A stretch of DNA of 64,000 bases, from the IMG/VR virus record IMGVR_UViG_3300011115_000949, positions 35,849 through 99,848 of that record; one strand, written 5' to 3'. Numbering within the stretch: position 1 is the stretch's first letter; every line of letters starts with the position of its first letter. Positions 29,428-45,066 of this stretch are shown here, in pieces. This DNA comes from a virus. The translations under genes and the position numbers were made by a program. A model generated the notes under the pieces. It had not been told where the DNA came from. It was given only the letters and a program-made list of their open reading frames with translations, and ran no database searches.

Positions 29428-30435
29428 TTACTTTTTTGTTAAACCAGCTAACTCACGCATACGTGCGAAAGCATCGTTTTCGATAATTGGTTTAGCTACA
29501 CTTCCTAAAGCTTTAGAAGCTGAACCTAAAGATTCTTTAATAGGTGATTTAGCTATAGTAGCTACACTTCCTAATAAAGTTTCATAAATAAGTTGTGCTT
29601 CTTGTTTAGTTTTGGCTTTGTCAAAAGCAGCTAAAACTTTTACCTTTTGTGATTCAGTTAAAGATTTGTTACGGAAAAGCTTGTTAGTGTAAAGAAGTTT
29701 AGCGTTTAACAAGTTGATTTCTTGAAGTTCAGAACGAAGAGTTTCAATTGCAGCATAAGCTTCTTTTAATTCTTCTTCTTTTTCTTCAGATTTAGATTCA
29801 GGTTTTTTAACTTTTTCCTTAACTTCTTCTACACCTTCATCTTCATACACATCTTCTTCTACATTTTCATTAGCACCTTCAAGTTCAGCTAAAAGTTCGT
29901 CGATGTTAACATCTTCTTCTTCGCCACCTTCTTCAGGTTCCATTTCCATGTCCATTTCCATTTCTTCACCTTTACCACCTTCAGCAGCTTCAAGTTCCCC
30001 TGCAGCTACCATGTCTTTAATAACTCCTTCAATAAAAGATTTAAGATCTTCTTCAGTCATGTCTTCGATAGACATTTCTTCGTTATCTTCAGATTCATCT
30101 TCTTTAGCTTCTGTTATTTCTTCTTCAACTGGTGCCTCATCTTCTTCGATTTCAGCTAAAAGTTCGTCTAAAGAAATTTCAGAAACATCTTCTGATGTTT
30201 CATCTTCCATTGTAAGGTTTTCTTTGTCAGCTTCATAAGCTTTTTCTTCTAGTTCCATTTCTGTTAGACCTAAATCATTTGCTTCTTCAATTTCTTCAAG
30301 TTTAGCAGCTAATTTTTCTCTAAGAAAAGGACCAAAAGATTCTTCTAAAGCTGCTTTTGCGTTTGCTATAGCTGTTTCTTTAACAGTTTTAGCATCGGCG
30401 ATTGCTTCTTTAAGCAAGTCTCTGTTTGTTGCCAT
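29428..30435 (-). CDS. Prohead scaffold/core protein (T4 gp22 analogue)
   Basis: Very acidic, coiled-coil, directly upstream of the major capsid gene, with many I/L-x-E sites; ends FARMRELAGLTKK. Confidence 0.85.
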   Translation of the reverse strand: MATNRDLLKEAIADAKTVKETAIANAKAALEESFGPFLREKLAAKLEEIEEANDLGLTEMELEEKAYEADKENLTMEDETSEDVSEISLDELLAEIEEDEAPVEEEITEAKEDESEDNEEMSIEDMTEEDLKSFIEGVIKDMVAAGELEAAEGGKGEEMEMDMEMEPEEGGEEEDVNIDELLAELEGANENVEEDVYEDEGVEEVKEKVKKPESKSEEKEEELKEAYAAIETLRSELQEINLLNAKLLYTNKLFRNKSLTESQKVKVLAAFDKAKTKQEAQLIYETLLGSVATIAKSPIKESLGSASKALGSVAKPIIENDAFARMRELAGLTKK

Positions 30436-30462
30436 TTTTCCTTAATTTTTAATTTTTGGAAG

Positions 30463-30536
30463 TACGCTTAATGTGAAATAATTTCAAAGCGTAATAAGAT
30501 TTATAATTCACAATGCCTCATTATGTTGGGCACATT
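30463..30536 (-). promoter_or_regulatory. Structured 5-prime leader of the scaffold/capsid operon
   Basis: Hairpin TACGCTT-TGAAAT..TTTCA..-AAGCGTA (30463-30493) and AATG(TG)CC/GGCATT hairpin (30512-30536), downstream of CATACGTATA. Confidence 0.45.
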
Positions 30537-30579
30537 CTAGTATACGTATGTACATATCTATTCAAAGTCGCAAAGGAAG

Positions 30580-30610
30580 AAAAAAAAGACGCTTCTTTTG
30601 AAAGCGCCTT
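30580..30610 (-). terminator. Intrinsic terminator
   Basis: Sense AGGCGCTTTC-AAAA-GAAGCGTCT-TTTTTTT. Confidence 0.8.
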
Positions 30611-30634
30611 AGTTTTAAAATAGTATTTGTATTT

Positions 30635-31213
30635 TTATTTTTTACGAAATTTTTTTAATGCTTCGTTTACTATTGATTCAATGTTAAGTGATTCTGCTTG
30701 TGGTTGTTTTTGTTGTGCTGCTAACCATCTATCTATTTTTCCTAGTATAATCATGTTAGTCTTATCAAATCCTCCTATTTTTTCTAATGTTTTTTTAACA
30801 TTAAATAATGCAGGATATGTGTGATCAGACATATATGATCTTACAAATGATCCAGATCCTCTATTAAAAAATTCAGTATATAATTGCATAGCAATTTCCT
30901 TTTTAGTAATTTCTTCTGATACTCCTTTTTCTTTAGCTAAAGTTAAAATATTATTAATTCTTTTTTCTAATTCACTATTAAAAGAAGAAGAATTATTTTG
31001 TTTCCAATTAAATTGAGTAATAAATTTTCTTAAATCACGAAAAGGATTATCTAAAACTTCTAAATCTTTAACTTTTTGAGCTATGGCTTCTCTTGAATCC
31101 AATCCCTTAGTAGCTTCACCTTCAAGTGATTGGGACCAGTTAGTTATTTCATTCAATACCCCTGCTAAAAATTGCATTCTTTTGAATTCTTCAGATATGA
31201 TTTGTTTTTTCAT
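30635..31213 (-). CDS. Putative internal head protein with RMQxLAG tag
   Basis: Starts MKKQIISEEFKRMQFLAGVLNE; inserted between protease and scaffold with its own promoter motif and terminator. Confidence 0.6.
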   Translation of the reverse strand: MKKQIISEEFKRMQFLAGVLNEITNWSQSLEGEATKGLDSREAIAQKVKDLEVLDNPFRDLRKFITQFNWKQNNSSSFNSELEKRINNILTLAKEKGVSEEITKKEIAMQLYTEFFNRGSGSFVRSYMSDHTYPALFNVKKTLEKIGGFDKTNMIILGKIDRWLAAQQKQPQAESLNIESIVNEALKKFRKK

Positions 31214-31240
31214 TTTATTAAATATTTTGTTATAAATATG

Positions 31241-31840
31241 TTATATTATTGGGCAAGTTCCATTAGCACACAATATTTCTGTTACTAATGAATTTACTTT
31301 ATAATACGGATTGATTGGAGATGAATTTAATCCTTCACGCAATGGAGACATAAACGAGCCTGGGTTTGAAGGTGTAGAAACGAAATCCCAACACAATAAT
31401 TCAAAATCGTCTTGTACTTCTAATACTTCACCTACTTGTTTTAAACTACCCATACCACGAGATGAAACACCAACTTTAATACCACTACCAATTAGTGATT
31501 TTAAAATGTTGCCTGACGGGGTAGGTAGTATTTCAATTTTGCCCATAATATTATCTCCATCCCACCAAATGCTATTGATGTTATGTGATACGTTTTTTAA
31601 GTTAACTACTTGAGAATCAGGGTGATCTAATTCACCACAAGCACGTCTTTCTTTAACTAAAGTCATGTACTTGTCGATTTCACGTTTCCATAAATCTTTA
31701 GCATAATAGCGACCGTTACCGTTTTTAACTTCACAGGTAGCTAAAACACCTTCAACTAATGGGTTACCATTCATCTTACCTTCGGTAAGTGAGGCAGGTG
31801 ATACGTTAAAGGGACGAGTTTCTACAAGTAGCGATTTCAT
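31241..31840 (-). CDS. Prohead core protease (T4 gp21-like)
   Basis: NGNGRYY, GELDHP, VSHNI, GVSSRGMGS and WDFVSTPS. Confidence 0.95.
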   Translation of the reverse strand: MKSLLVETRPFNVSPASLTEGKMNGNPLVEGVLATCEVKNGNGRYYAKDLWKREIDKYMTLVKERRACGELDHPDSQVVNLKNVSHNINSIWWDGDNIMGKIEILPTPSGNILKSLIGSGIKVGVSSRGMGSLKQVGEVLEVQDDFELLCWDFVSTPSNPGSFMSPLREGLNSSPINPYYKVNSLVTEILCANGTCPII

Positions 31841-31841
31841 G

Positions 31842-33194
31842 TTATTTTAATTCTTCTTTAATAAGTTTAGCAATTAAAGAACGTACTTTTGATTCTCTTA
31901 ATCCAGTTTCTGTCATTCCTTGAAATGGTATATCTTTATCTGCTTCTAAAGGAAAAGCATAATCCATAATAGTATTGATTTGAGATGAATTTAAATCTGT
32001 GTTCTCAAGATACTTGAGTGCTGCATCTTTACTCATTTTATTTGATTCAATAGCACTTAGATGTTGATCTAAAACATCAGTATTTTCTTTTAATGAACTA
32101 TATGGTGGTAAATCTTTTTCTGTCCAACTTAATCCCAATCCTATTTTAAGTGCTTGTTGTCTCAAAGCTTCTGCTTCTTCTTTTTTTCCGTTATTATATA
32201 ATTTTTTGCCCTCATCATAAAGTTTAATTGCTTTTTTAGCTGTATCTTTATCATGTTTGGAATCTCCATCTGAAGGGTCAGTATCAAAATATGGATTTTC
32301 GCCAGTTACTATTTCTTTTAATTTAATTCTTTTTTCAGCACCCGGTGTTTTCATTTTTTTAACACCAGCAGAGTTTTGTGGTGTTACAGGCATTTCCTTT
32401 ACTTTTTTAGGCATTGAAGTTTTAGCTTCACTGTTACTTAATGTATCTTTAACGTTTGCTTTTACTTTTTCAACGTCAACGTCTAAATCACCATATCCAC
32501 TTGATTTGTGTTTACCTTTTGGTTCTACTGGTTGTTTTAATGATGGTGCTTCGTCTGTAAATCCAACACCTTCAACACCAAACATTCCATCTTTAGTGTA
32601 ATGTAAAGCATCTTTTGCTAAGTTTTTAACAACGATGTCTTTTAATTCATCTACAGTTTTGTCATGGTTTTTAGGATTTTTTAATTCAAGATAAAAACCT
32701 TTCATGATTTCGTTAAAATTAACGTTGTCAGCATTTTTCATGTCTGCGTTATTGTAAGCATTTTTACGATAATCTTCAACTTCTTTAGATACGTTTTTTT
32801 CTGTGGCTTTAACTGATTCGGATAAACCTCTCAAAGGTGGTTCCATTTTCATCGCTATGTCCGCTTCTTCTACTCCAAATTTTTCAGCTACTGCTTTAGT
32901 ACCCATGTTAAGATTTTTTCTATAAAAATCAACAGCTTGTTGAAGTTTTTTCTTATAATCTTCTGTTTCTTCAGCTAATACTTTTTTCCAATCTACAATG
33001 TTGAAACCTTTACTAACAACACCACCAATAGTATTTTCACTGATGATTTGTTTTGATTTTAATACATTTACAGTAGTATCAAAATCTAAAAGGTTAGTAA
33101 TGTGTTGTGGAAACAAGTGACGAGCTTGTTTTAAAAATTGTGCTTTATTTCCCTTACCACCAACGATTGAGTTGTAATGTTCTTGTAGTGTCAT
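31842..33194 (-). CDS. Putative prohead core/internal protein
   Basis: Between portal and protease; many I/L-x-E sites; ends LRESKVRSLIAKLIKEELK. Confidence 0.55.
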   Translation of the reverse strand: MTLQEHYNSIVGGKGNKAQFLKQARHLFPQHITNLLDFDTTVNVLKSKQIISENTIGGVVSKGFNIVDWKKVLAEETEDYKKKLQQAVDFYRKNLNMGTKAVAEKFGVEEADIAMKMEPPLRGLSESVKATEKNVSKEVEDYRKNAYNNADMKNADNVNFNEIMKGFYLELKNPKNHDKTVDELKDIVVKNLAKDALHYTKDGMFGVEGVGFTDEAPSLKQPVEPKGKHKSSGYGDLDVDVEKVKANVKDTLSNSEAKTSMPKKVKEMPVTPQNSAGVKKMKTPGAEKRIKLKEIVTGENPYFDTDPSDGDSKHDKDTAKKAIKLYDEGKKLYNNGKKEEAEALRQQALKIGLGLSWTEKDLPPYSSLKENTDVLDQHLSAIESNKMSKDAALKYLENTDLNSSQINTIMDYAFPLEADKDIPFQGMTETGLRESKVRSLIAKLIKEELK

Positions 33195-33195
33195 A

Positions 33196-33747
33196 TTATT
33201 TTTTATTAAATAATGTTAATAAATTGTTTGCGTTTTTAATCATGTTGTCTAATTGTTCTTTACCAAATTCAGTGCCTGGGAGTTCTTTAGCTGTATTGAA
33301 ATCAGGTTTTTCTTTATATGCCTTTTCAGTTTTAGCTTTGGCTTGTTTTAGTAAAGGTAACAATGTGTTTAATTTATTTTCAATTTCATCATAATCATCA
33401 ATTCGATCTGTGATAAATGATTTTAAATCACCATCTTGTAAATTTAATGAATTGATAAATGAGTCTGTTGATTCTTTTTCTTCTAATTTTTTCTTCCATA
33501 AATCTTTATGGTCAATAGTTTTAGAAGCTTTATGTAATTTTTCTACTGGAACTGGTTTCCAACCCAATTTATAGTAGTAGATGTTTTGAGCACCTTTAGC
33601 TTTTTTATTTGGATTGAATGCTACTGTTGGAGCATAATTAGCACTGTCACCAGTATTAAAATGTCCAGCATCTACACCAGCGCCGGTAGCACTCATTTCC
33701 TTTAATTTAGCACGGATAATTTCTTTTATTTTATCTTTATTATCCAT
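33196..33747 (-). CDS. Putative prohead core/internal protein
   Basis: Starts MDNKDKIKEIIRAKLKE; head operon context. Confidence 0.5.
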   Translation of the reverse strand: MDNKDKIKEIIRAKLKEMSATGAGVDAGHFNTGDSANYAPTVAFNPNKKAKGAQNIYYYKLGWKPVPVEKLHKASKTIDHKDLWKKKLEEKESTDSFINSLNLQDGDLKSFITDRIDDYDEIENKLNTLLPLLKQAKAKTEKAYKEKPDFNTAKELPGTEFGKEQLDNMIKNANNLLTLFNKK

Positions 33748-34594
33748 TTATCTTTTTCAATTCGTCAAGTAAATCACAATACTGTAATAAATTAACCATA
33801 TGATCGTTGTTTACTTTATCGTTTTTACCTAATTCAGCTAAAAGACCAATTGTTTCGGTTAATTTAATTTTAGTAACCTGATCGCTTGTTTTCTTGTTTA
33901 ATTCAAATAAGCGATTTTTAATTTCGATAGTTTTGGAATTATAGAATTCTTTTAATTTTACTGGGTTGTCTTCACAGTTGATGAATTCTTTAAGTATATC
34001 TTTTTTACTAGGACTAAAATTAGCGTATTTGCTGTTAAATTTATCTAATAAAAGTTTGTATGTTAAAATACGAGTACCTTTATCTGCTTTGTTTAATTCT
34101 TCAAAAACCTCTTCTGTTTTATTTTCTTTTTTAGATGTTGTAGAAGTTAAATGTTCTAATACAGCTAATTTATTTGTAATAACTTGTTCGGTTTTTGCTG
34201 CTTTTATTTCCACAGATTCAATCAATGTATATGTAGCAGCTTGAGCTTTGTAATTAGGCAATTTTGTTTTAAAGAATTGTTCTAAATCATAATGATTTTT
34301 AATTTCTTTAATTAAATTGTATTTTTGTCTTTTAAGTGCAGATTTATTTAATTGTTTTGCACTTTCAAGTACAGTGTCAATTACAAGGTTTGCTTTACCT
34401 TCCGTTAAGTTAGTACGTTTGGTTAAGCTTTCATATAACTTATACTCACGACCTAATTCTGTTTTGCTAAAGTATTTTTTTAAAATACCTAAAGCTTCGG
34501 AATTCTTGCCAGATAATGTATCAGCAGTGATTTGTCTGACTAAAAGTTCAAAGAGAATACCGGTGTTTTTAAATTTTGAATGTTTGATTAACAT
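33740..34594 (-). CDS. Hypothetical head-assembly protein downstream of the portal
   Basis: 284-aa helical ORF starting IKHSKFKNTGILFELL, with an ATATTTATAA motif upstream. Confidence 0.55.
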   Translation of the reverse strand: MLIKHSKFKNTGILFELLVRQITADTLSGKNSEALGILKKYFSKTELGREYKLYESLTKRTNLTEGKANLVIDTVLESAKQLNKSALKRQKYNLIKEIKNHYDLEQFFKTKLPNYKAQAATYTLIESVEIKAAKTEQVITNKLAVLEHLTSTTSKKENKTEEVFEELNKADKGTRILTYKLLLDKFNSKYANFSPSKKDILKEFINCEDNPVKLKEFYNSKTIEIKNRLFELNKKTSDQVTKIKLTETIGLLAELGKNDKVNNDHMVNLLQYCDLLDELKKING

Positions 34595-34630
34595 TTAAGT
34601 ATGCTTTTATTATAAATATATCAGGATAGA

Positions 34631-36496
34631 TTAATCTCGCAATTGGTTTTCATCTAGCAACGATTCTTTTGCTTTATCTGATTGAAAGACCAATTTCTTT
34701 TCAATTTCATTTATGAATTGCGAGTTTTTTAATTTAACGTTTTCAGTTAATGCTTTGCTATTAAAATCAGGTTGATCATCTGTTTTAGCTGCCTGGCGAC
34801 CTAATCTATCTCTACCAAAAGCATTATCTTGAGTATTGATATTTGTTACCTTTTCTTCAGGGCGACCTAATTCAACATCTTTATTATATCCTGCTGGTAC
34901 ATTTGCTGGGTCAGAAACCATACGTCCCTTACCATATAGTGCAGCTAAATCATGAGGTGTACCATATGATTTGCCTGTTTCAAGTGGGTCATTACCTTCT
35001 TCAGTTACTTGAGCTAAGCGGAATTTACGTTTAGCATCTTGAAGTATAAGATCTCTATATTCATCATATTGATCTTCACTGAAATGGAATATGTGGTGGT
35101 AAATCCAATCTGTAGGTAAAAGTTGAGCATCCATTATGTTTTTAGCTAAGTCAACTTTTTCTTTCATTAACGCAATACGTTCTTGATCGTATATAATAGA
35201 TGGAGTAGTTAATGATAATTCAAAATTAGTTAACATTTCACCTTTATACCCTTGAACATATAAATGTACTAAAGCAATACGATATAATTCAGATAAAAGT
35301 ATACGTTGAATTCTATCAATTGTACGAGCAAAACGAATATCTTCAGCTGCTAATGTTGCTTTACCAGTTAAATCTTTTTCGTAACCCATAAATGCTTTAG
35401 GTACTTTAAGAGCGGCAAATAGTTTATCTCTTAAATAAACTACATCTTCCATCCCCGTATAATCTAAACCTTTAGTAGTTTCAATTTTAGTAGCACTATC
35501 GTTACCACGAACAGGAATATAAAAATCTTCTAACATGTTTTGCATGTTATATTTTAAGTTATATTCACCTGTTTGTTGATCTACATAAGGTGTTTTTTTC
35601 ATTGTAGCAATAGTCTTCTTCATGAAGTTTTCTACTTCATTTGGAGGAATAGAACCTACATTAATATAAAAAATACGTTTTTCTGGTGCGCGAGAGATCC
35701 TATGAATTAACATAGCATCTTCCATTAATGAATATTGTTTGTATAATTTACGAGCTGGTTCAATATATGAACGTCCGTAAGGTAAATAGTTTACATCTGT
35801 AAGTAAACGGAAATGTGCTATTTCGTAGTTATCAAAATATATTCCTGTTGTGTCAGGACTAAATTGATGTGGCATACTAAACTGTCCGTAACCACCACCT
35901 ACATACCCATCAGGGCTATATTTAAAACGAACAGACATTGGGTTATCCTTATCCCAACCTTCTTGACGTTCCATGTGATATGCAGTGTATGGTAAAACAT
36001 TATATACACCAAATTTTTCTGCAATTTCTAATTTTAAAAAGAAATCACCATATTTGCACATTTGGCGAGTCCAAGACCACAAGTTAAATTCAATATTTAA
36101 TACGTCATAAAACAAGTTATAAAGTATTTTCTGAATGTCTTCGTCTGAGCTGCGGATTTGGAGTACTTCCCCCATTTCGTTTTTTAAAGAACATTCATCA
36201 GCTATAATATCAAGAGCAGATGCTATAATAGCATCGTTGTCCATAACATCATAATCTGAGTATAGTTGTGTTCTTAAGTATTGATAATTTACGTTTAATT
36301 GTTGGCCGTAAAGTGAAGAGGCGTTTGCTGAGTAGATACGGTTGTATCTGTCTAATAACGAATTTGTTTCATATCGACCGCTTCTTTGAATTGAGTCAGT
36401 GTCAATTACTTTAATTTGATTACCACCTTCGTTACGAATAATAACGTCAGTTGAAAATAATCTTTTTAGTCTTGAAAATATACTTACGTCTGCCAT
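34631..36496 (-). CDS. Portal protein (T4 gp20-like)
   Basis: YGRSYIEPARK, LMEDAMLIHRISRAPEKRIFYINVG, MLEDFYIPVRG and LFAALKVP. Confidence 0.95.
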   Translation of the reverse strand: MADVSIFSRLKRLFSTDVIIRNEGGNQIKVIDTDSIQRSGRYETNSLLDRYNRIYSANASSLYGQQLNVNYQYLRTQLYSDYDVMDNDAIIASALDIIADECSLKNEMGEVLQIRSSDEDIQKILYNLFYDVLNIEFNLWSWTRQMCKYGDFFLKLEIAEKFGVYNVLPYTAYHMERQEGWDKDNPMSVRFKYSPDGYVGGGYGQFSMPHQFSPDTTGIYFDNYEIAHFRLLTDVNYLPYGRSYIEPARKLYKQYSLMEDAMLIHRISRAPEKRIFYINVGSIPPNEVENFMKKTIATMKKTPYVDQQTGEYNLKYNMQNMLEDFYIPVRGNDSATKIETTKGLDYTGMEDVVYLRDKLFAALKVPKAFMGYEKDLTGKATLAAEDIRFARTIDRIQRILLSELYRIALVHLYVQGYKGEMLTNFELSLTTPSIIYDQERIALMKEKVDLAKNIMDAQLLPTDWIYHHIFHFSEDQYDEYRDLILQDAKRKFRLAQVTEEGNDPLETGKSYGTPHDLAALYGKGRMVSDPANVPAGYNKDVELGRPEEKVTNINTQDNAFGRDRLGRQAAKTDDQPDFNSKALTENVKLKNSQFINEIEKKLVFQSDKAKESLLDENQLRD

Positions 36497-36504
36497 AGGT
36501 TAAA

Positions 36505-38082
36505 TTATAATAGCCACCCTAAATCTTCGGTATCATTTTCACCAGTTTTCATTACATATGGATTATCCATACCTGATGCAAAATAAGCCCCCTGATATGA
36601 GGATGGTTTTTGTATGTTATTTAAAGTTGCTTTAGTCAATTCTATTCCTTGTTGTCTATATTTTAATGCTGTGTCACGAACATACATAGCAATGCTATAC
36701 GACATTACCATATCATCATTGTACCCAGTTTGTGCTTCCGCTCTACCATTTTTCCAAACAAATACTTTCATTTCTTCTAATAAACGTTTGTCTCTAATGA
36801 GTACACTATGATCTCCAAAATACTCTCTACCTTTATTAATTACTAATGGTCTAGTTCTTAATGACATAGTAAATCCAGGTGTCATTTTGGATGTATCTTC
36901 GTATCTACTAAAATACGAATCAGAATTTGCGATATCACTTTTAGGTGAATAATATAGATTTCTATATCCTCTTTCTTGAATTGAGTCTAATGTAGACCAA
37001 CCAATATTATTGTTTTCAACTATAAGTAATGCTTCATTATATTCAGTAGCTATACCACAAAGTAGATAACCAAATTCTTTAGGTGGTAATTGTCCTTTAT
37101 AAGCTGCTACTTGAGCATTTGTTTCAATATCAAATATATGAAATACAGAAAAATCTTTTCCATCCCCTCTAGCTACGTCAGCTACTACCATATAATTTCT
37201 AGTGTAATCTGGGGATTCCCAAACCCACAAATTTTTATCTACACCTCTTCTTTCTACAGGTTCTGATATTGTAGTAGTTGAATAATATTCTATATGTTCA
37301 GGATAGTATACTACATCACCTGAAGTTGTAAAATCACAGTCACATTCTTGTGCTGCTAATCTTGGGTCGCCTAATAATTCGTCTTGTTTTTTTCTCCAAG
37401 CTTCATCTCGTTCAGGATGAACCATCCAAGGTAATTTAATTGGAAGAAAATCGTTTTCTTGAGCTTCAGCTGAAACCCAGGTTTTGTGGAACCAATTACC
37501 AGTACCAAATGGAGTAGATAATACAATAGCACCACCACCAGTGGCTAATGTTTGTTGAGCAGAGGCCCATATCTCAGCTATGTTTTCAATAAATGCAGCC
37601 TCGTCAACTAACAACAAAGATACTGCTTCAGATCGACCAGCATCGCCTGCTGCTGATACTGCTTTAATTTGAGAGCCGTTTGCTAATTTAAGTGATAGTT
37701 TATTATTTTCAGAAGGTTTTTCTCCTCCTTTAAGCCATGTAGGTAAGTTATCATACATAAATCTTACCTTTGTAACCATGTTTTTAGCAGTTTCTTGTTT
37801 AGTTGCTAAACACAATACGTTTTTATCTTTATGAAATAACATTAACCATAAAGAATACCCAGCACATAATGTTGATATACCTAACTGGCGTGATTTGAGT
37901 ACAATGTTGTATGGATTATCCCTCCATAAACTTAATACTTTACCTTGAAATGGGTACAAGTTAAATATAATTCTACCACGAGTTGGGTGTTGAATGTAAC
38001 AATATTTTTTCATAAAGTGTGCTGGGTCTTTTGCACACTTGATGTATTCTTCTCTGATTATTTGTCTTAAATCTTGACTCAT
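36505..38082 (-). CDS. terL: Terminase large subunit (T4 gp17-like)
   Basis: LKSRQLGIST, LLLVDEAAF, LSTPFG, ADVARGDGKD and NDDMVMS. Start refined to ATG 38082 (ATGA overlap with the upstream stop). Confidence 0.95.
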   Translation of the reverse strand: MSQDLRQIIREEYIKCAKDPAHFMKKYCYIQHPTRGRIIFNLYPFQGKVLSLWRDNPYNIVLKSRQLGISTLCAGYSLWLMLFHKDKNVLCLATKQETAKNMVTKVRFMYDNLPTWLKGGEKPSENNKLSLKLANGSQIKAVSAAGDAGRSEAVSLLLVDEAAFIENIAEIWASAQQTLATGGGAIVLSTPFGTGNWFHKTWVSAEAQENDFLPIKLPWMVHPERDEAWRKKQDELLGDPRLAAQECDCDFTTSGDVVYYPEHIEYYSTTTISEPVERRGVDKNLWVWESPDYTRNYMVVADVARGDGKDFSVFHIFDIETNAQVAAYKGQLPPKEFGYLLCGIATEYNEALLIVENNNIGWSTLDSIQERGYRNLYYSPKSDIANSDSYFSRYEDTSKMTPGFTMSLRTRPLVINKGREYFGDHSVLIRDKRLLEEMKVFVWKNGRAEAQTGYNDDMVMSYSIAMYVRDTALKYRQQGIELTKATLNNIQKPSSYQGAYFASGMDNPYVMKTGENDTEDLGWLL

Positions 38083-38486
38083 ATAGCTAGAAGCAGACTT
38101 AAGATAATGCAAGTTCCTCCTACAATATAGGATACTACTTTAGCACGTTTATGTTTTTTAATATCGTTTTTATATAATTGAATTTCTTCGTCTTTATTGT
38201 CAATAATTTGAGTATAATTTAATTCGTTTTGTTTATACAAATTAATTGATTTATCTTGCGTTTTAATAACAATATCCTGTTTTAAAACAACTTTATCTAA
38301 GACAAGTATAGAATCACGAGTGATTCCAATTTGAGTTTTTAAAAAGTCACGTTCGGTTTTTACTAGTAAAGCGTTTTTTAATGCTATACAAGGAACGCAA
38401 CATTGCTCATCATTTGAAAGCGTCTGTGAATTCGCTAACAACGGACTTAGCATCAAGATTATTAATACGATCGCGTTCTTTATCAT
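38079..38486 (-). CDS. Putative spanin-like component (signal peptide, coiled coil, C-terminal hydrophobic segment)
   Basis: Hydrophobic N- and C-termini; overlaps the upstream TM/coiled-coil gene by 77 bp. Confidence 0.4.
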   Translation of the reverse strand: MIKNAIVLIILMLSPLLANSQTLSNDEQCCVPCIALKNALLVKTERDFLKTQIGITRDSILVLDKVVLKQDIVIKTQDKSINLYKQNELNYTQIIDNKDEEIQLYKNDIKKHKRAKVVSYIVGGTCIILSLLLAI

Positions 38487-38754
38487 GTTTATTTTTATTT
38501 TGTTTACTTTTTTCTTTTAAAACTTCTAATTCTGCTTTATCTTTTTCTATTTCTTCTTTAAATTTTTCAGCTATAGAATTAAGTTCTAAAATTTGGGCTT
38601 GTTTTGCTTTAATATCTAAAGCAAGTGAATCGTTTTGTTGATTTAACTCTTTTAAACGATCTTTAATATTTAACGTTTGTTTATTTTGGAATACAAGTAA
38701 AACAAATAGAATAACTATTACAATATAAGGAATTATATTTTTAAGCTTACTCAT
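38410..38754 (-). CDS. Putative i-spanin-like protein
   Basis: N-terminal TM segment (IIPYIVIVILFVLLVF) followed by a long coiled coil. Confidence 0.5.
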   Translation of the reverse strand: MSKLKNIIPYIVIVILFVLLVFQNKQTLNIKDRLKELNQQNDSLALDIKAKQAQILELNSIAEKFKEEIEKDKAELEVLKEKSKQNKNKHDKERDRINNLDAKSVVSEFTDAFK

Positions 38755-39518: not shown

Positions 39519-39539
39519 TATATGGTTTAGTTATAAATA

Positions 39540-40070
39540 TTACAAACTTAGATAAGATTTGAACTGTTTAATGCGATCCTCGACCGATCCCGATATAATT
39601 CCGAAATTTTTAATATTGATTAAATTTTCAGAAATTAAAGTCCTAATTGTACGTTCAATTTGTTTGCGATATATTGCATCTGTTGTACGAACATTGTTAT
39701 CTTCTATACCAACACCCTCTGATGTTACATGAAATATCCAATCATATTCAGGTATAAAAGTATGAGCATAATGTATAAATGCTGCTTTATGTTCTAATTC
39801 AATTGATTGAGCATTTTCTGTAAACGCCATTACATCAATAACAGTACGATCCGTTATAATGTTTTCTTGAATTAATTCAGAACAACGTTCTGCTAAGAAT
39901 ATAGTTTGACCTTTTAATGTACTATCTGTGTTTAATGGAATACCTAAATCACGTAAATATTTACTACGTTCTGTAGCAAATGTATAGTGACTAAATTCAG
40001 GTAATTCTTTGATAGCATTAACTAATGTAGTTTTTCCTACACTTACTGTTCCACAAAAACCTATTTTCAT
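39540..40070 (-). CDS. P-loop kinase/ATPase (AAA_28, NadR-kinase-like)
   Basis: MKIGFCGTVSVGKTT, IITDRTVID and EDNNVR. Confidence 0.75.
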   Translation of the reverse strand: MKIGFCGTVSVGKTTLVNAIKELPEFSHYTFATERSKYLRDLGIPLNTDSTLKGQTIFLAERCSELIQENIITDRTVIDVMAFTENAQSIELEHKAAFIHYAHTFIPEYDWIFHVTSEGVGIEDNNVRTTDAIYRKQIERTIRTLISENLINIKNFGIISGSVEDRIKQFKSYLSL

Positions 40071-40071
40071 A

Positions 40072-40308
40072 TTAAAATCTTGCTTTAGCCGCTCCTGATT
40101 TATACCATGGTAAACCTGACTCTGCTTTTTTTATTTTTTTATGTTCGTCTTTAGTATATAAAATACCATTTAAATAATACTCTTCTGTACCATCAGGATG
40201 AATTACAGCAGGACCATCTGGGTTGTGTAATTTATTTCCTTTAATGTAACGAACAGTACCGTCTGTTGATTTAAGACGTTTAATTTGAAGTGATGGATCA
40301 ATATTCAT
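40072..40308 (-). CDS. Small protein with a LHxxDGPA beta-hairpin motif
   Basis: KLHNPDGPAVIHPDGTEEYYLNG. Confidence 0.65.
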   Translation of the reverse strand: MNIDPSLQIKRLKSTDGTVRYIKGNKLHNPDGPAVIHPDGTEEYYLNGILYTKDEHKKIKKAESGLPWYKSGAAKARF

Positions 40309-40324
40309 ATAACCTTATTTTGTA

Positions 40325-40356
40325 TAAATGTATAAGTATTTTTCTTGGAAGCCAAA
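40325..40356 (-). promoter_or_regulatory. Bacteroidota-type promoter candidate
   Basis: Sense TTTG-N20-TACATTTA; shares TTTGGCTTCC with the site at 42907-42938. Confidence 0.6.
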
Positions 40357-40647
40357 TTACTCTCCTCCAGATAATACTCCTATTTTTTTAAGACTTTTAA
40401 CTTCAGGTTGAACCATTTTATATTTTTGTTTAATTGTTATTGCAAGATCTGTTGTAGACATACCATCTTTACCGGCGCGCTGCAGTGCATCTATTAATTT
40501 TTCAATCCAGTAACCTTTATAAAGTTGTTTTACTTTATTTGCTTTTTCAGAATTAATAATTGTAATACTTTTAGCGGTACGACCCTGTTTAGCTTCAGCC
40601 ATTTCTTTGGCTACTAGTTCACGAATTAATTTAGATAATTTATCCAT
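40357..40647 (-). CDS. Tagged small winged-HTH-like protein
   Basis: MDKLSKLIRELVAKEMAE leader; GMSTTDLAITI...VQPEVKSLKKIGVL is wHTH-like. Confidence 0.5.
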   Translation of the reverse strand: MDKLSKLIRELVAKEMAEAKQGRTAKSITIINSEKANKVKQLYKGYWIEKLIDALQRAGKDGMSTTDLAITIKQKYKMVQPEVKSLKKIGVLSGGE

Positions 40648-40660
40648 TTTATTATAAATA

Positions 40661-40702
40661 TTAGAATCCTTCGATGAAATCTGGATATTCTTGTTCTTCC
40701 AT
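40661..40702 (-). CDS. Candidate 13-aa micropeptide MEEQEYPDFIEGF
   Basis: ATG..TAA exactly fills the gap between two ATATTTATAA motifs. Confidence 0.35.
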   Translation of the reverse strand: MEEQEYPDFIEGF

Positions 40703-40713
40703 GTTTATAAATA

Positions 40714-41478
40714 TTATTTAAGTAAAGATTCTGCTACATAAATACCATGAGCTCCACTTACTGTTATACCACGAGCTGATAAAGCATCACCTACAAAGTG
40801 TACATTTGGGTATTCAGTTAATGATAAGTCATTATAATTTACAAGTGGTTCAGGACTTAAATATTTTACCTCGGGTACATATATTCCCCAATCATCACCA
40901 AAATTAAATACTTTATTCATTTGGTCAATAAAATTTTCAATATATTCAAAATAACCATTCATTGTATTTCTTACACCATCCAAATTATCAATTTGAAATG
41001 CAGTTACATCTGTACCTTCTGATGTTTTAGATACTATTCTAGATGGTGAATAATATAATCCTTTACCTCCAAACTGTAATTTATTTACTACATCACGTGA
41101 CCATTCAAATGGATTTTCAATACCTTTAATTTCCATTAATATACCAAAATTAGTCATATTATTGCGGTATTCTTCACCTTTTTTAGCATGACCATTGTAT
41201 GTTATGTCTCCATAAGTTTCTTCAACTGCAACGTATGCTGCGTTGTTGTTTGTACAAAACGAACGTAATGATACGTTGTCAAATTTTTGATATAACTTAA
41301 AATCGTAACTAACATCAATTAATTTTTGAAAGTATTTTTGTGGGCTTTCAAATCTCACCCCAATCTGGCAACTCTTGCTTTCAGTGGGTAAATCATATTT
41401 CTGAGCTAATTTAGCTGAGAAATCAATTCCTGCTTTACCTGTACCTACAATGCATGTGTCGAATTTAATTTTTCTCAT
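40714..41478 (-). CDS. FAD-dependent oxidoreductase (COG2509-like), C-terminal half
   Basis: IVGTGKAG, IGVRFE, YDFKLY, RSFCTN, NGHA, PEVKY and VGDA..RGI..SGAHG. Start refined to ATG 41478. Confidence 0.8.
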   Translation of the reverse strand: MRKIKFDTCIVGTGKAGIDFSAKLAQKYDLPTESKSCQIGVRFESPQKYFQKLIDVSYDFKLYQKFDNVSLRSFCTNNNAAYVAVEETYGDITYNGHAKKGEEYRNNMTNFGILMEIKGIENPFEWSRDVVNKLQFGGKGLYYSPSRIVSKTSEGTDVTAFQIDNLDGVRNTMNGYFEYIENFIDQMNKVFNFGDDWGIYVPEVKYLSPEPLVNYNDLSLTEYPNVHFVGDALSARGITVSGAHGIYVAESLLK

Positions 41479-41615
41479 ATTTTTATCCAATTTTTATATT
41501 TGTTTATTCTTTGTCTAATTAGTAAACTTAGTTGATCAAGATTATGATTAAATTTTTCTTTAAATTCATGTCTTGTTCCTACAAATGTTTCTTCAGTTAA
41601 TGTGTTATAAAAAGT
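41475..41615 (-). pseudogene. Start-less relic of a homing endonuclease C-terminal DNA-binding domain
   Basis: Frame TFYNTLTEETFVGTRHEFKEKFNHNLDQLSLLIRQRINKYKNWIKI* follows an in-frame TAG; the F.GT..EF..K...LS.LI...YK.W pattern is characteristic of these domains. Confidence 0.55.
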
Positions 41616-41630
41616 CTAAGAAAAAGTTAA

Positions 41631-42119
41631 TTATTTTTGAAAAACTACAACATAAAACCCATCATCATCTTCTTCAGGATCTCCTTCACTTATATTTTCA
41701 TAAAGTATATTATAGTTTTGAAACATTGATTTTAATGTTTTTAAATTCGTATTGTAATCTTGAACTACTAAATATCCCCCAGATTTTAAAGCATCATCCA
41801 CTGTTTTTTTAATTTCTGGTGAGTATTGGAAATTATAAAATGAGTATGACATGTTAATAAGATTTCTAGGAGGTAATTTAATGTATTGATTTAAATCATG
41901 TATCTGATTATTAGGATTTCCATCTTTGGGGGTAGAAAATTTATCTATTACTATAGTTTTATTTCCAAAATCACTATATTTTCCTCCTCCAAAATCGTAT
42001 ATTTCTTCTGAATTTGGTTCTAGTTTTTTAGATAAATTATTAGCAGATATATATTTATCTCCCAAATCTAAATTATCTACTTTAAGGATTTCACTTAATA
42101 AATTTATTAATTTTATCAT
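41631..42119 (-). CDS. Class I SAM-dependent methyltransferase-like protein with N-terminal tag
   Basis: IYDFGGG, IVID, HDLN and LKSGGYLVV; leader MIKLINLLSE. Confidence 0.65.
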   Translation of the reverse strand: MIKLINLLSEILKVDNLDLGDKYISANNLSKKLEPNSEEIYDFGGGKYSDFGNKTIVIDKFSTPKDGNPNNQIHDLNQYIKLPPRNLINMSYSFYNFQYSPEIKKTVDDALKSGGYLVVQDYNTNLKTLKSMFQNYNILYENISEGDPEEDDDGFYVVVFQK

Positions 42120-42121
42120 GT

Positions 42122-42361
42122 TTATTTAGTAGTTTTAATATTAAATTCATCACCAACTATACAATCATGATTATCTATAAAATTAATAATTTTTTTTAAA
42201 AGAACATCATTAGTATCATCATTAATCTTAATTACTTCTCCAGTCAGTTGATTTTCTATTATACAATCTTTAGTATAACTTTGATAAGTACAGTTGAATT
42301 TCCCTTCTACAGGTTCAACAATGTTGTTTATCTCTAATACTTTGTAATTAAATTTTTTCAT
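42122..42361 (-). CDS. Hypothetical protein
   Basis: 79-aa ORF preceded by an ATATTTATA motif. Confidence 0.55.
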   Translation of the reverse strand: MKKFNYKVLEINNIVEPVEGKFNCTYQSYTKDCIIENQLTGEVIKINDDTNDVLLKKIINFIDNHDCIVGDEFNIKTTK

Positions 42362-42382
42362 AATTATGTTTTTATATAAATA

Positions 42383-42901
42383 TTAATCTTTTAATATTAC
42401 TTCTCTAGTTTCAAAATCAATTTCACTAACTTCAGTCTCCCACATAAAATTTACACCCTTATCTAACAAATATTGATACCATGCTTTAGCAATTTCATGT
42501 AAATAATTTGATCCAATATGCCAAACTGGAAACATACGTAGTCCAAAGTATGGTTTAATAAATTCAGGTTCCTCTTGTGGATCAGACATAAAAATTTCAT
42601 CTGGTTTGGGGTGGAAGCGAGTAAAGTTATCTACTACTTCTTTCATTAGTTCCATTGCTTTATCTTCACCACAATACTTAGCTAATTGACCCCCAATTGC
42701 GGTATGGTAAGTAAGTTTACCGTCGCTCCATCCCCCTGCTCCTAACATTCCTGTCATTACCTCTTCAGGTAAACGGTTAATAGGGTCATTTCCTTTGTCA
42801 ATGATTGTGATTAAATGTCCTGGGTATCCATTGTCTACTAATTTAGTAGCAGCATTTATACCTGCTACACCTGCGCCTACAATTACAATTTTTTTATCCA
42901 T
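42383..42901 (-). CDS. FAD-dependent oxidoreductase (COG2509-like), N-terminal half
   Basis: IVIVGAGVAG Rossmann motif, GAGGWSDGKL, HIGS and GVNFMWETEV. Confidence 0.85.
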   Translation of the reverse strand: MDKKIVIVGAGVAGINAATKLVDNGYPGHLITIIDKGNDPINRLPEEVMTGMLGAGGWSDGKLTYHTAIGGQLAKYCGEDKAMELMKEVVDNFTRFHPKPDEIFMSDPQEEPEFIKPYFGLRMFPVWHIGSNYLHEIAKAWYQYLLDKGVNFMWETEVSEIDFETREVILKD

Positions 42902-42906
42902 ATTTT

Positions 42907-42938
42907 TAAATATACAATTTTTTATCTAGGAAGCCAAA
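42907..42938 (-). promoter_or_regulatory. Bacteroidota-type promoter candidate, possibly leaderless transcript
   Basis: Sense TTTG-N20-TATATTTA-N5-ATG. Confidence 0.6.
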
Positions 42939-42940
42939 AT

Positions 42941-42967
42941 AAAAGTGGCATCCTTTTAGGACGCCAC
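42941..42967 (-). terminator. Intrinsic terminator
   Basis: Sense GTGGCGTCC-TAAAA-GGATGCCAC-TTTT. Confidence 0.75.
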
Positions 42968-42998
42968 AGCTGTCATATTTTATCTCTTTTGAGCGACC

Positions 42999-43370
42999 GG
43001 CTATGAATCGGTCTATATATTATTTTATATTAATATAATCCTTCGCCTGAAGATAATTTTCTCCAAGCTGATTGAATATATTTCATTTCAGACATATCAT
43101 CTATATGATCACTAAAAAAGTTTATAAATTCTGATTTTGTGATTTCATTATGTCCGGAAAAAGTTTCATTAAAATCTAATAGTATATCTTCATCATCAAA
43201 TGAATCAGCATATTCTTGAGCATCACTAACACTAATAGTTTGTTCATCTTCATTTAACTGTGACTCAATGATCAATCCTGCGAGTTTTTGCATACGTTTA
43301 AATTCTTCGTTTAATGTTTGTTTTTTCATTTTAGTTTTGTTTTAATTGGTTATAAATCGGTCTGTATGTT
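42999..43370. repeat. 23-bp imperfect direct repeat flanking ORF 43030..43329
   Basis: ggctatgaatcggtctatatatt (42999-43021) versus ggttataaatcggtctgtatgtt (43348-43370); 19/23 identical. Confidence 0.7.
43030..43329 (-). CDS. Acidic putative internal head protein with RMQKLAG tag
   Basis: Starts MKKQTLNEEFKRMQKLAGLIIESQLNE. Confidence 0.65.
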   Translation of the reverse strand: MKKQTLNEEFKRMQKLAGLIIESQLNEDEQTISVSDAQEYADSFDDEDILLDFNETFSGHNEITKSEFINFFSDHIDDMSEMKYIQSAWRKLSSGEGLY

Positions 43371-43374
43371 TAAT

Positions 43375-44028
43375 TTAGAAAAATGATTCTTTATTTGCTT
43401 CAATAGCATCAAAATCTAGTTGTGGTTGATCTTTTTTAAGTTTAGTTAATGCTAAATCAAAAGCTATATCAAAATCAGAACGATAATTTAAATCCAAAGA
43501 TTCAGGTTCACCCATACTATCTTCAACAACATCATCAATATATTCTCTCATATATCCACCTTCTTCAGTATCTAAAAATGGATTAAATGCTTCATAAAGT
43601 GATTCTTTAAGTTCAGATGATTCTCCATTATGAGAGATTAAGTATATTTTATTGTATTTTGACATAAAATTATTTAATTCATCTTCACTAGTAATAGCTT
43701 TCCAATTATCAGGGTTATTTAAAAATGTTGTAATATAATTTATATCAATTATTCCGTAATTATCATTAAATATTTGAATTACTTCTGGGTTTTTAGATAA
43801 AGTGCCTGTTATAGATAAAATAGATTTTGAAGTATCTTTTATAGCTATATTATATACTATAAAACCTATTTTTTTAGGTTTAACGAATCTAGGTGCTAAT
43901 TTAGAATCATCAGAAACATATAATGTTATCCCATCATTTATTAAATCTGATGCTTTGTTTTCATTTATTTGAATTCCAGCAAGCTTTTGCATGCGTTTAA
44001 ATTCTTCAGATAGTATTTGTTTTTTCAT
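43375..44028 (-). CDS. Putative internal head protein with RMQKLAG tag
   Basis: Starts MKKQILSEEFKRMQKLAGIQINE; internal LKESLYE precedes an acidic second domain. Confidence 0.65.
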   Translation of the reverse strand: MKKQILSEEFKRMQKLAGIQINENKASDLINDGITLYVSDDSKLAPRFVKPKKIGFIVYNIAIKDTSKSILSITGTLSKNPEVIQIFNDNYGIIDINYITTFLNNPDNWKAITSEDELNNFMSKYNKIYLISHNGESSELKESLYEAFNPFLDTEEGGYMREYIDDVVEDSMGEPESLDLNYRSDFDIAFDLALTKLKKDQPQLDFDAIEANKESFF

Positions 44029-44054
44029 TTTATACTAGTTATATATTATACATA

Positions 44055-44525
44055 TTACACAACCCATGAAGGTTTATTATTTAATTTATTCCAACTTAAC
44101 CCTTTAACGCCAACTTTATCAAGTACATAAAATCTTTTATATGCCTCTAATGTATCCGGTCCTTTAAATTGATCGGGCATACATTGTGGGGGTGTTGTAA
44201 AACCATTATCTGGGATGTTAGGTTCATTTGTTTTACACCATTCTAATATATCTTGTGTTTTATGACGTTTACCATAACGTTTAGTAAATTCACTACAAAT
44301 TTCTAAACCATGTGCTATAAGCCATCTATAATGTTGTATAGATTGTCTTGCCCAAATTGTTGAGGGATGATTTTTGTGAGCACGTTTGTATGGTGCTGTT
44401 CCACCTGTTTCCCAATGTGCCGTACAACACATTTGAGCACTTTCAATTTGCATTTTGCGGATGTGGTCGTCTGCTAATTCGCGTGCTGCTAGGGTTGGAT
44501 CATTATTAATGTAGAATATATTCAT
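44055..44525 (-). CDS. Pyrimidine-dimer DNA glycosylase family protein (DenV-related)
   Basis: MNIFY...DDHIRKMQIESAQM...HKNHPSTIWAR...EFTKRYGKRH...PPQCMPD. Confidence 0.8.
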   Translation of the reverse strand: MNIFYINNDPTLAARELADDHIRKMQIESAQMCCTAHWETGGTAPYKRAHKNHPSTIWARQSIQHYRWLIAHGLEICSEFTKRYGKRHKTQDILEWCKTNEPNIPDNGFTTPPQCMPDQFKGPDTLEAYKRFYVLDKVGVKGLSWNKLNNKPSWVV

Positions 44526-44547
44526 AACTTTTATTTGGTATAAAAAT

Positions 44548-44571
44548 AAAAAAGGCCTCTTTGGAGGCCTA
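44548..44571 (-). terminator. Intrinsic terminator
   Basis: Sense AGGCCTC-CAAA-GAGGCCT-TTTTT. Confidence 0.8.
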
Positions 44572-44595
44572 ATTTAATTTGTATTTTAGAAATTT

Positions 44596-45066
44596 TTATT
44601 TTATTTTAGCTTTATACTGAGCTTCAGTGATTACACCAGCTAATTTTTGCATGTAAAGAAATGATTCGTTTAATGGTTTTTCTTCTTCCATATAATTTTC
44701 ATCCATTCCATTTTCAACCTCAGATGCCATTTCGTCTACCATTTCTTTGGTTTCTTCAGATTTTGGTTCTTCAGTTTTTTTCTTACCTTTACTTTTCATC
44801 TTTTCAAGTTGCTTTTCGTATTTTGCTAAACTTTTTTCAAGATGTTTTATTTCTTTTTCAATTTCTTTAACTTTACCTTTATCAAGCATTTCATGATATG
44901 CTTCATCTAAACCTTCCATAGCCATTTTAGATTTACGTTCTTCAATAGCTTCTTTAGTTTTAGCCATTTTAGCTTCTAAGGCGGCTACATTACCTGCTTC
45001 GTCAATTTCACGAATGTAGCTTTGAATAGATTCGCGTATAATTTGTCTAAGTGTTGAATTTTCCAT
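44596..45066 (-). CDS. Coiled-coil putative internal head protein tagged at both ends
   Basis: N-terminal MENSTLRQIIRESIQSYIRE; C-terminal PLNESFLYMQKLAGVITE. Confidence 0.6.
   Translation of the reverse strand: MENSTLRQIIRESIQSYIREIDEAGNVAALEAKMAKTKEAIEERKSKMAMEGLDEAYHEMLDKGKVKEIEKEIKHLEKSLAKYEKQLEKMKSKGKKKTEEPKSEETKEMVDEMASEVENGMDENYMEEEKPLNESFLYMQKLAGVITEAQYKAKIK

What the first reader, a model, noticed from the sequence alone, without database searches (positions are those of the whole stretch)
29428..45066. Scaffold C-terminal peptide reused as a portable tag (F-x-R-M-x-x-L-A-G) on unrelated proteins: candidate capsid-cargo addressing system
Seen: the scaffold ends IIENDAFARMRELAGLTKK. 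The same peptide starts three otherwise unrelated ORFs: 30635 (MKKQIISEEFKRMQFLAGVLNE), 43030 (MKKQTLNEEFKRMQKLAGLIIESQLNE) and 43375 (MKKQILSEEFKRMQKLAGIQINE). It also ends a fourth, 44596 (PLNESFLYMQKLAGVITE). In these four ORFs it is bracketed by I/L-x-E sites, and similarity stops right after the second E. Known: scaffold C-termini bind coat protein (P22), T4 internal proteins use a short cleavable capsid-targeting sequence, and T4 gp21 cuts after I/L-x-E. Inference: the phage grafts its coat-binding helix onto arbitrary payloads so that they co-assemble into the prohead, are released by the protease, and may be injected. If true, it is also a usable protein-packaging tag.
Basis: partly seen in the sequence, partly recalled or inferred. 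Interest (0 to 1): 0.9.

Follow-up and report, generated by a model that had tools for sequence, protein, structure and literature searches.

The report
Scaffold-tail copy tags phage cargo
An uncultured T4-like phage of aquatic Bacteroidota puts a copy of the last dozen residues of its head-scaffolding protein, flanked by head-protease cutting sites, on four unrelated small proteins; this is most likely a clip-off "load me into the capsid" label, but neither loading nor cutting has been measured.

Summary
The motif F-x-R-M-x-x-L-A-G occurs five times in the window, where 0.04 is expected by chance. It ends the scaffold, starts three unrelated ORFs and ends a fourth. The phage has a T4-type head module with gp20, gp21, gp22-like and gp23 homologues; its nearest cultured relative is Flavobacterium phage immuto.

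In at least 119 related viral contigs the core RMQKLAG lies only at the extreme C-end of scaffold homologues next to the capsid gene, or at the N-end of small, variable proteins. A profile of the leader finds 1113 protein clusters. Among the best 150, 121 payloads fall into 79 unrelated groups. I/L-x-E sites flank the peptide at fixed distances. Codons vary synonymously, so selection acts on the protein. In a fold model the leader is detached from its payload.

Two points are new here. Distant relatives (RM378, Mel-JY01) have the scaffold tail but no tagged cargo. One payload family carries either this leader or a second one, FDLKKYLAEG.

Capsid loading, the binding partner, cleavage and injection all remain inferences. 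The closest known systems are the T4 capsid targeting sequence and the 80alpha scaffold/CpmB tail mimicry. This scan already reported the same tag on other genomes.

The parts
27737..29395 (-). Major capsid protein, gp23-like (552 aa)
   Evidence: Pfam Gp23 E 3e-74; PHROG major head protein; 58% identical to the MCP of Flavobacterium phage immuto.
29428..30435 (-). Head scaffolding protein (335 aa): long N-terminal helix, acidic disordered middle, helical C-domain, linker and tail
   Evidence: Lies directly upstream of the MCP. 88 related loci hold homologues in the same position. Weak profile match to T4 gp22 around the L-T-E-S-Q-K stretch. AF2 model.
29431..29478 (-). Scaffold tail: the last 16 residues after an I-I-E site, holding the motif R-M-R-E-L-A-G-L
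   Evidence: The tail helix 321-329 is modelled with pLDDT about 83 after a disordered linker. In 70 of 89 homologues a [LIVM]-x-E ends exactly 7 residues before the motif.
30635..31213 (-). Tagged protein p192, in the slot between protease and scaffold; the leader is residues 1-22 (31148-31213)
   Evidence: No Pfam or PHROG match. In relatives the same slot holds other leader-bearing ORFs. A TATTTATAA motif lies upstream.
31241..31840 (-). Prohead protease, T4 gp21 type (Peptidase_S77)
   Evidence: Pfam E 4e-28; PHROG head maturation protease E 2e-56; 32% identical to T4 gp21, with the His, Ser and Asp motifs aligned.
34631..36496 (-). Portal protein, gp20-like (context)
   Evidence: Pfam Portal_T4 E 2e-65.
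36505..38112 (-). Large terminase (context)
   Evidence: Pfam Terminase_6N.
43030..43329 (-). Tagged protein p99; the leader is residues 1-22, up to I-I-E (43264-43329), with a second L-N-E at residue 27
   Evidence: no PHROG match.
43375..44028 (-). Tagged protein p217; the leader is residues 1-23 (43960-44028); the payload is a conserved family of unknown fold
   Evidence: 259 homologues, about half of which carry a different leader. In the AF2 model the leader has pLDDT below 50 and the payload 24-217 is folded. No PDB fold match.
44596..45066 (-). p156: a Lys/Glu-rich helical protein with the tag at its C-end (44599-44676) and a leader of a different class at its N-end
   Evidence: Homologues with the same C-terminal tag occur in L013, L015 and L073.

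Best explanation
The peptide is a prohead-addressing tag copied from the tail of the scaffolding protein.

Shown: the scaffold of this T4-like clade ends in a strongly conserved short basic amphipathic helix followed by a hydrophobic hook (core RMQKLAG, then I-I-K). A subclade has placed the same peptide on many unrelated small proteins. It sits mostly at their N-end and sometimes at their C-end, and it is always flanked by I/L-x-E motifs of the kind that T4 gp21 cuts.

Inferred: during head assembly the tag occupies the site that the scaffold tail uses. That site is most likely the inner face or N-arm of the gp23-like capsid protein, or else the scaffold core. The tagged protein is thereby built into the prohead. 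The gp21-like protease then cuts at the flanking Glu residues, freeing the payload inside the head and destroying the scaffold. The payloads stay with the DNA and are probably delivered to the host, as the T4 internal proteins are.
For: - Five copies in the window against 0.04 expected by chance.
- A T4-type head module with a gp21-type protease.
- An unbiased DNA-pattern scan of IMG/VR returned at least 119 contigs. In 94 cases the motif lies within 4 residues of the stop codon, mostly in scaffold homologues directly upstream of a gp23-like MCP. In 24 cases it lies at residues 6-15 of small variable ORFs. It is almost never internal.
- The tail persists in immuto, Mel-JY01, LR756508 and RM378, the last with an MCP only 36% identical.
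- A leader profile finds 1113 clusters at E<=1e-3. Of the tags found in the best 150 proteins, 146 lie within the first 27 residues, and 121 payloads fall into 79 unlinked groups.
- Cut-site motifs sit at fixed offsets: L-x-E at -6 in 144/146 leaders, [LIVM]-x-E ending 4 residues after the Gly in 136/146, and [LIVM]-x-E 7 residues before the motif in 70/89 scaffolds against a background of 0.067 per position.
- Codons of the core vary synonymously.
- Tagged ORFs fill the protease-scaffold slot in relatives and share a TATTTATAA upstream motif with head genes.
- The leader is detached from the folded payload in the AF2 model.
- The same payload family carries either of two leaders, so leaders are swappable modules.
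- Precedents: the T4 CTS (PMC5694885, PMC3012670) and the 80alpha scaffold/CpmB 16-residue helix-and-hook that binds the capsid protein N-arm (PMC5644958).
Against: - There are no virion proteomics, cleavage data or binding data for any member, and no co-fold could be run.
- RM378 and Mel-JY01 have the tail but no tagged cargo, so a covariation test was not possible.
- In the window the scaffold tail (R-M-R-E) and the leaders (R-M-Q-K) differ in two core residues.
- A second leader class, FDLKKYLAEG, does the same job on the same payloads yet copies no scaffold tail that I could find, and a profile comparison shows no relation to this tag. Mimicry of the tail therefore cannot be the whole story of leader function.
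- A peptide that works with a free C-end on the scaffold may not bind in the same way when it is N-terminal.
- The fixed cut-site offsets among scaffolds are partly inherited, and among the best 150 profile hits they are partly selected by the profile itself.
Confidence: 0.6

Rival explanations
1. The tagged proteins are not cargo. They are assembly modulators or auxiliary scaffolds that compete with the scaffold tail for its site, as SaPI1 CpmB does with the 80alpha scaffold. They would tune head size, nucleation or timing and would then be degraded.
For: The CpmB precedent for tail mimicry (PMC5644958). p156 is a Lys/Glu-rich helical protein with the tag at its C-end, as on the scaffold, and its homologues lie in or beside a head-module gene in about 12 loci. 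Proteins P0042 and P0144 carry the tag at both ends.
Against: 79 unrelated payload groups, most of them small and some with enzyme-like domains (RecA/KaiC, HD, a PBECR4 nuclease), fit varied cargo better than a conserved assembly role. The number and identity of tagged genes vary from genome to genome. The p217 payload is a folded globular domain.
Confidence: 0.15
2. The peptide is a general interaction module for a partner unrelated to the capsid shell, for example a chaperone, the portal, the protease itself or a host factor. The scaffold and the small proteins each use that partner independently.
For: No data identify the partner. A second leader class and a third, unrelated to the scaffold tail, occupy the same N-terminal position on similar genes.
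Against: The motif is confined to phages with this head module, and its most conserved site is the tail of the scaffold next to the MCP gene. The flanking protease-type sites and the placement of tagged genes between protease and scaffold point to the prohead. If the partner were the portal or the protease, the result would still be incorporation into the head.
Confidence: 0.15
3. The shared stretch is kept at the DNA level, as a recombination joint for swapping gene cassettes or as a translation-start element, and the peptide itself has no function.
For: The same payload occurs with two different leaders, so recombination at the leader-payload joint does happen. The two tagged genes at 43030-44028 are adjacent.
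Against: Codons of the invariant core vary freely: 4-5 Arg codons, 5-6 Leu, 4 Ala and 3-4 Gly. The peptide stays constant in both leaders and scaffold tails. A start element cannot explain the copies at C-ends.
Confidence: 0.03

Closest known systems
Capsid targeting sequence (CTS) of phage T4 internal proteins IPI-III and the Alt propeptides
   Same: Both are short leaders shared by otherwise unrelated, fast-evolving proteins in a phage with a gp20/gp21/gp22/gp23 head module. Both end at an I/L-x-E site of the kind gp21 cuts. T4 Alt is cut at both ends (ITE-6, LTE-619), as the N- and C-terminal tags here would be (PMC5694885).
   Different: There is no sequence similarity to the T4 CTS. The T4 CTS is not a copy of the gp22 tail, which ends in a different conserved motif shared with Kyanoviridae. 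Here the leader is about 22 residues long with cut sites on both sides, and it also occurs at C-ends. Packaging and cleavage are demonstrated in T4 and not here.
Staphylococcal phage 80alpha scaffolding protein tail and its mimic on SaPI1 CpmB (helix-and-hook with the RIIK motif)
   Same: In 80alpha the last 16 residues of the scaffold form an amphipathic helix plus hook that binds the capsid protein N-arm, and a second, unrelated protein carries a copy and uses the same site (PMC5644958). Here the predicted released tail is also 16 residues and commonly ends in I-I-K.
   Different: The phage lineage is unrelated and there is no significant sequence similarity. CpmB is a single size-redirecting competitor from a parasite element and is not cargo. 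Here the copies sit mostly at N-ends, on dozens of payload families, and carry protease sites.
P22 scaffolding protein C-terminal coat-binding helix-turn-helix and the engineered cargo fusions made with it
   Same: The coat-binding end of a scaffold is used as a portable handle to load foreign proteins into a procapsid (PMC9962691, listed; otherwise my own knowledge).
   Different: The P22 cargo fusions are engineered and use a large scaffold fragment. P22 has no maturation protease. Here nature appears to use a tag of about 12-20 residues that can be clipped off.
Encapsulin cargo-loading peptides and the C-terminal targeting tail of the HK97 protease
   Same: Both are short terminal peptides that dock cargo on the inner face of an HK97-fold shell (my own knowledge, not tested here).
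   Different: They have different sequences, are not derived from a scaffold tail, and are not followed by protease removal and DNA packaging in the same way.

Membership tests
T4-type head assembly module | gp20-like portal, gp21-like S77 protease, scaffold and gp23-like capsid protein in the T4 gene order | tested here: met
   Pfam Portal_T4, Peptidase_S77 and Gp23 with strong E-values, in the order portal ... protease, scaffold, MCP. The protease is 32% identical to gp21 with the catalytic motifs aligned.
T4 CTS-type capsid targeting leader | The same short terminal peptide on otherwise unrelated proteins | tested here: met
   Four unrelated proteins in the window; 121 payloads in 79 unlinked groups among the best profile hits.
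T4 CTS-type capsid targeting leader | The leader ends at a prohead-protease site (I/L-x-E) and is removed | tested here: inconclusive
   The site motif is present at fixed offsets, and a gp21-type protease is present. Cleavage itself cannot be tested with these tools.
T4 CTS-type capsid targeting leader | Sequence relationship to the T4 CTS (MKTYQEFIAE) | tested here: not met
   No resemblance on inspection of the leader alignment against the T4 CTS, which I quote from my own knowledge; the T4 IP genes were not fetched. A different leader class in the window (L-+-x-I-I-R-E-E-I) looks somewhat closer.
T4 CTS-type capsid targeting leader | The leader is sufficient to load proteins into the prohead core, and the proteins are found in virions | not testable with these tools
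   I found no proteomics for this clade in the papers searched.
Scaffold-tail mimicry (80alpha SP / CpmB type) | The scaffold ends in a conserved helix-plus-hook tail | tested here: met
   The tail is conserved in 89 distinct scaffolds and in immuto, Mel-JY01 and RM378. AF2 models a helix at 321-329 after a disordered linker.
Scaffold-tail mimicry (80alpha SP / CpmB type) | A second protein carries a copy of that tail | tested here: met
Scaffold-tail mimicry (80alpha SP / CpmB type) | Tail and copy bind the same site on the capsid protein | not testable with these tools
   Only single chains can be folded here, and no solved relative of the scaffold exists.

The most novel reading that the evidence does not exclude
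Far-T4 phages of aquatic Bacteroidota run a modular cargo-addressing code. At least two, and possibly three, interchangeable clip-off leaders load a fast-changing set of mostly unknown effector proteins into the head. One leader is a copy of the scaffold tail, a second is FDLKKYLAEG, and a third is of the L-+-x-I-I-R-E-E-I type. The scaffold-tail copy docks in the same pocket of the capsid protein as the scaffold itself. This would give a natural tag of 12-20 residues for packaging proteins into T4-type capsids. It would also explain how internal-protein targeting sequences arise, namely by duplication of the scaffold's own docking peptide.
Probability: 0.4. Interest if true: 0.8.

Novelty: new variant of a known kind. 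Interest (0 to 1): 0.65.

Why it matters
How phages choose which proteins travel inside the capsid is understood in only a few model phages. If this reading holds, it gives an evolutionary origin for capsid targeting sequences: they would be copies of the scaffold's docking tail. It also marks more than a thousand clusters of otherwise unannotatable environmental phage proteins as probable head-internal, possibly injected, proteins; these are candidate anti-defence effectors. And it offers a very short natural tag for loading proteins into T4-type capsids. I found no paper in the searchable library that contains the motif.

Tried and rejected
- Covariation test. I looked for N-terminal copies of the diverged scaffold tails of RM378 and Mel-JY01 in their whole genomes. 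There are none, so the test gave no information.
- Tail swap with the second leader. I asked whether the second leader (FDLKKYLAEG) replaces the scaffold tail in the genomes that use it. It does not: those genomes keep the RMQKLAG-type tail.
- Relation between the two leaders. A profile-profile comparison found none. A shared F-x5-L-A spacing is only something I saw by eye.
- T4 itself. The gp22 tail and the CTS do not resemble each other or this tag.
- Payload function. Pfam finds almost nothing, and Foldseek of the p217 model against the PDB finds no match.
- Solved relatives of the scaffold or its tail. There are none.
- A parallel case for the third leader class. I asked whether the C-end of the 450-aa head protein is a conserved counterpart of that leader. 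Its C-end is not conserved in relatives.
- Docking of the tail helix in the scaffold model. I could not inspect this because model coordinates are not exposed.
Full report
**What is in the window.** The region lies in a 99.8-kb viral contig with about 30% G+C. On the minus strand it encodes, in order:
- a large terminase (36505-38112);
- a gp20-like portal (34631-36496);
- three unannotated head-module ORFs;
- a gp21-type S77 prohead protease (31241-31840);
- a 192-aa ORF;
- a 335-aa scaffold (29428-30435);
- a gp23-like major capsid protein (27737-29395).

The protease is 32% identical to T4 gp21, with the His, Ser and Asp motifs aligned. The nearest cultured relatives by capsid protein are Flavobacterium phage immuto (58%), Microcystis phage Mel-JY01 (48%) and Rhodothermus phage RM378 (36%). 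The phage is therefore a distant T4-like myophage.

**The observation.** It lies at the scaffold C-end, at the N-ends of the ORFs starting at 31213, 43329 and 44028, and at the C-end of the ORF 44596-45066. Composition-matched random sequences give a mean of 0.04 copies. The rest of the contig has none. The four payloads are unrelated by BLAST.

- In 94 cases the peptide lies within four residues of a stop codon. Nearly all of these are 250-480-aa proteins that are scaffold homologues, sitting directly upstream of a gp23-like gene 32-78% identical to the window's.
- In 24 cases it lies at residues 6-15 of small ORFs whose sequences diverge completely after the Glu that follows the tag.
- It is almost never internal.

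The scaffolds of immuto, Mel-JY01, the 484-kb uncultured phage LR756508 and RM378 end in recognisable versions of the same tail. Classical T4-likes (T4, Pelagibacter phage HTVC008M, Synechococcus phage S-H38) share a different conserved tail.

A 34-position profile of the leader was searched against 1.84 billion representative proteins. It found 1113 clusters at E<=1e-3 and 138 at E<=1e-10. Among the best 150 proteins, 146 tags lie within the first 27 residues. The 121 payloads of at least 50 residues form 79 BLAST-unlinked groups. Pfam recognises almost none of them; the exceptions are single RecA/KaiC, HD and PBECR4 nuclease hits. The profile includes the initial Met, so this list is biased towards N-terminal copies. 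The DNA scan is the unbiased view of where the peptide sits.

**Signs of function.**
- *Selection on the peptide.* The invariant core is encoded by many synonymous codons in both leaders and tails, so selection acts on the peptide and not on the DNA.
- *Cut-site motifs at fixed offsets.* L-x-E lies six residues before the core in 144 of 146 leaders. A [LIVM]-x-E ends four residues after the Gly in 136 of 146. A [LIVM]-x-E ends exactly seven residues before the core in 70 of 89 distinct scaffolds, against a per-position background of 0.067. Cutting there would release a 16-residue tail. These counts are partly inflated by shared ancestry and by the profile itself.
- *Gene position.* In relatives, the slot between protease and scaffold, which the tagged 192-aa ORF occupies in the window, holds other leader-bearing ORFs. 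Three of the four tagged genes in the window are preceded by the TATTTATAA-type motif that also precedes head genes. I take this to be a late promoter, but it is untested.
- *Fold model.* An AF2 model of the 217-aa tagged protein gives a confidently folded payload (residues 24-217). The leader has pLDDT below 50 and forms only a short helix.
- *Scaffold model.* The scaffold model shows a long N-terminal helix, an acidic disordered middle, a confident helical C-domain, a disordered linker, and then a short tail helix at 321-329.

- *Direction of evolution.* Whole-genome scans of RM378 and Mel-JY01 find the peptide only on the scaffold. The tail is therefore ancestral in this clade, and the copies on other proteins are a later habit of the immuto-like subclade.
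- *Small numbers per genome.* Counts are 0-4 tagged genes per genome.
- *A second leader.* The payload of the 217-aa protein is a conserved family: 259 proteins were found, and the 120 listed are at least 76% identical over the payload. 63 of those 120 carry this leader and 57 carry a different one, FDLKKYLAEG-type, joined at the same point. That second leader is itself widespread. It occurs in at least 120 contigs, lies at an N-end in 107 of 116 occurrences, has diverse payloads, and is found mostly in the same phage clade. It co-occurs with scaffolds that keep the RMQKLAG tail, and a profile comparison shows no relation to the first leader. Leaders are therefore swappable modules. Tail mimicry explains one class of them and not all.
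- *A third leader.* A further N-terminal pattern (L-+-x-I-I-R-E-E-I) is about 26-fold enriched at the N-ends of ORFs in this contig.

**Mechanism.** The best-supported reading is a removable prohead address. The tag would occupy the site used by the scaffold tail, the protein would be built into the prohead, and the gp21-like protease would cut at the flanking Glu residues.

Two experimentally established systems frame this reading. In T4, internal proteins and Alt join the scaffold core through a short capsid targeting sequence that gp21 removes, and Alt is trimmed at both ends (PMC5694885, PMC3012670). In staphylococcal phage 80alpha, the last 16 residues of the scaffold form a helix-and-hook that binds the capsid protein N-arm, and SaPI1 CpmB carries a copy that binds the same site (PMC5644958). 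The 80alpha tail ends Q-K-R-I-I-K-N. The commonest tail here ends Q-K-L-A-G-I-I-K. This is a resemblance only, with no significant sequence similarity.

The binding partner, incorporation, cleavage and injection are all inferred. T4 would suggest the core as partner, and 80alpha and P22 would suggest the shell.

**Novelty.** Capsid targeting leaders and scaffold-tail mimicry are each known. A cargo leader that is a copy of the scaffold tail, used across many payload families, is a new variant. I found no paper containing the motif strings. This scan has already reported the same tag on several other genomes, with the same reading. Those are AI notes and are not independent evidence.

Noticed in passing
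L248, L256, L160, L002 and other related loci; protein ids P0153-P0270: A second widespread N-terminal leader (M-D-N-FDLKKYLAEG-K-L-L-K-E) occurs on diverse small proteins of the same phage clade. It replaces the RMQKLAG leader on about half of the homologues of the window's 217-aa protein. The window's own contig has none.
   Followed up: partly
window 33196-33747, 44596-45066, 46385-46639, 49952-50338, 50700-51368 (- strand), plus two ORFs upstream of the window in the contig: A third N-terminal pattern (L-+-x-I-I-R-E-E-I) gives 7 hits at N-ends per 2552 positions, against 3 internal hits per 28206 positions. The ORF 44596-45066 has this pattern at its N-end and the scaffold-tail tag at its C-end.
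   Followed up: partly
window 33196-33747 and 27737-29395: After its leader, the 183-aa head-module protein continues with S-A-T-G-A-G...G-x-F..G-x-S-x-N-Y-A. This closely resembles the stretch that follows the likely propeptide cut site (V-V-E) of the capsid protein. Homologues in relatives keep it.
   Followed up: no
window, upstream of the ORFs starting at 31213, 34594, 39518, 40647, 42361 and 45066; near-matches before 43329 and 40308: A recurrent TATTTATAA motif lies 10-25 nt before start codons. There are 24 sense copies of TATTTATA on the coding strand against 9 on the other strand. It is probably the late promoter, and the tagged genes share it with head genes.
   Followed up: partly
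L121 (T4 gp22), L125 (HTVC008M), L126 (S-H38): The scaffolds of classical T4-likes and Kyanoviridae share a different conserved C-terminal motif (S-x-Y-x-x-x-[IV]-S-R-[FW]). A conserved scaffold tail therefore seems general in the T4 superfamily, with at least two types.
   Followed up: no
L001 18725-19966 (immuto gp067): The immuto scaffold homologue is annotated in GenBank as 'DNA polymerase phi-like protein', probably because of its acidic low-complexity middle. By position and similarity it is the head scaffold.
   Followed up: partly
proteins P0042, P0144, P0001, P0003, P0115, P0002: Two large proteins (874 and 969 aa) carry the tag at both ends. One 47-aa protein has two tandem tags. Three proteins have an internal tag preceded by Met, which suggests fused genes or polyproteins cut at the tag.
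   Followed up: no
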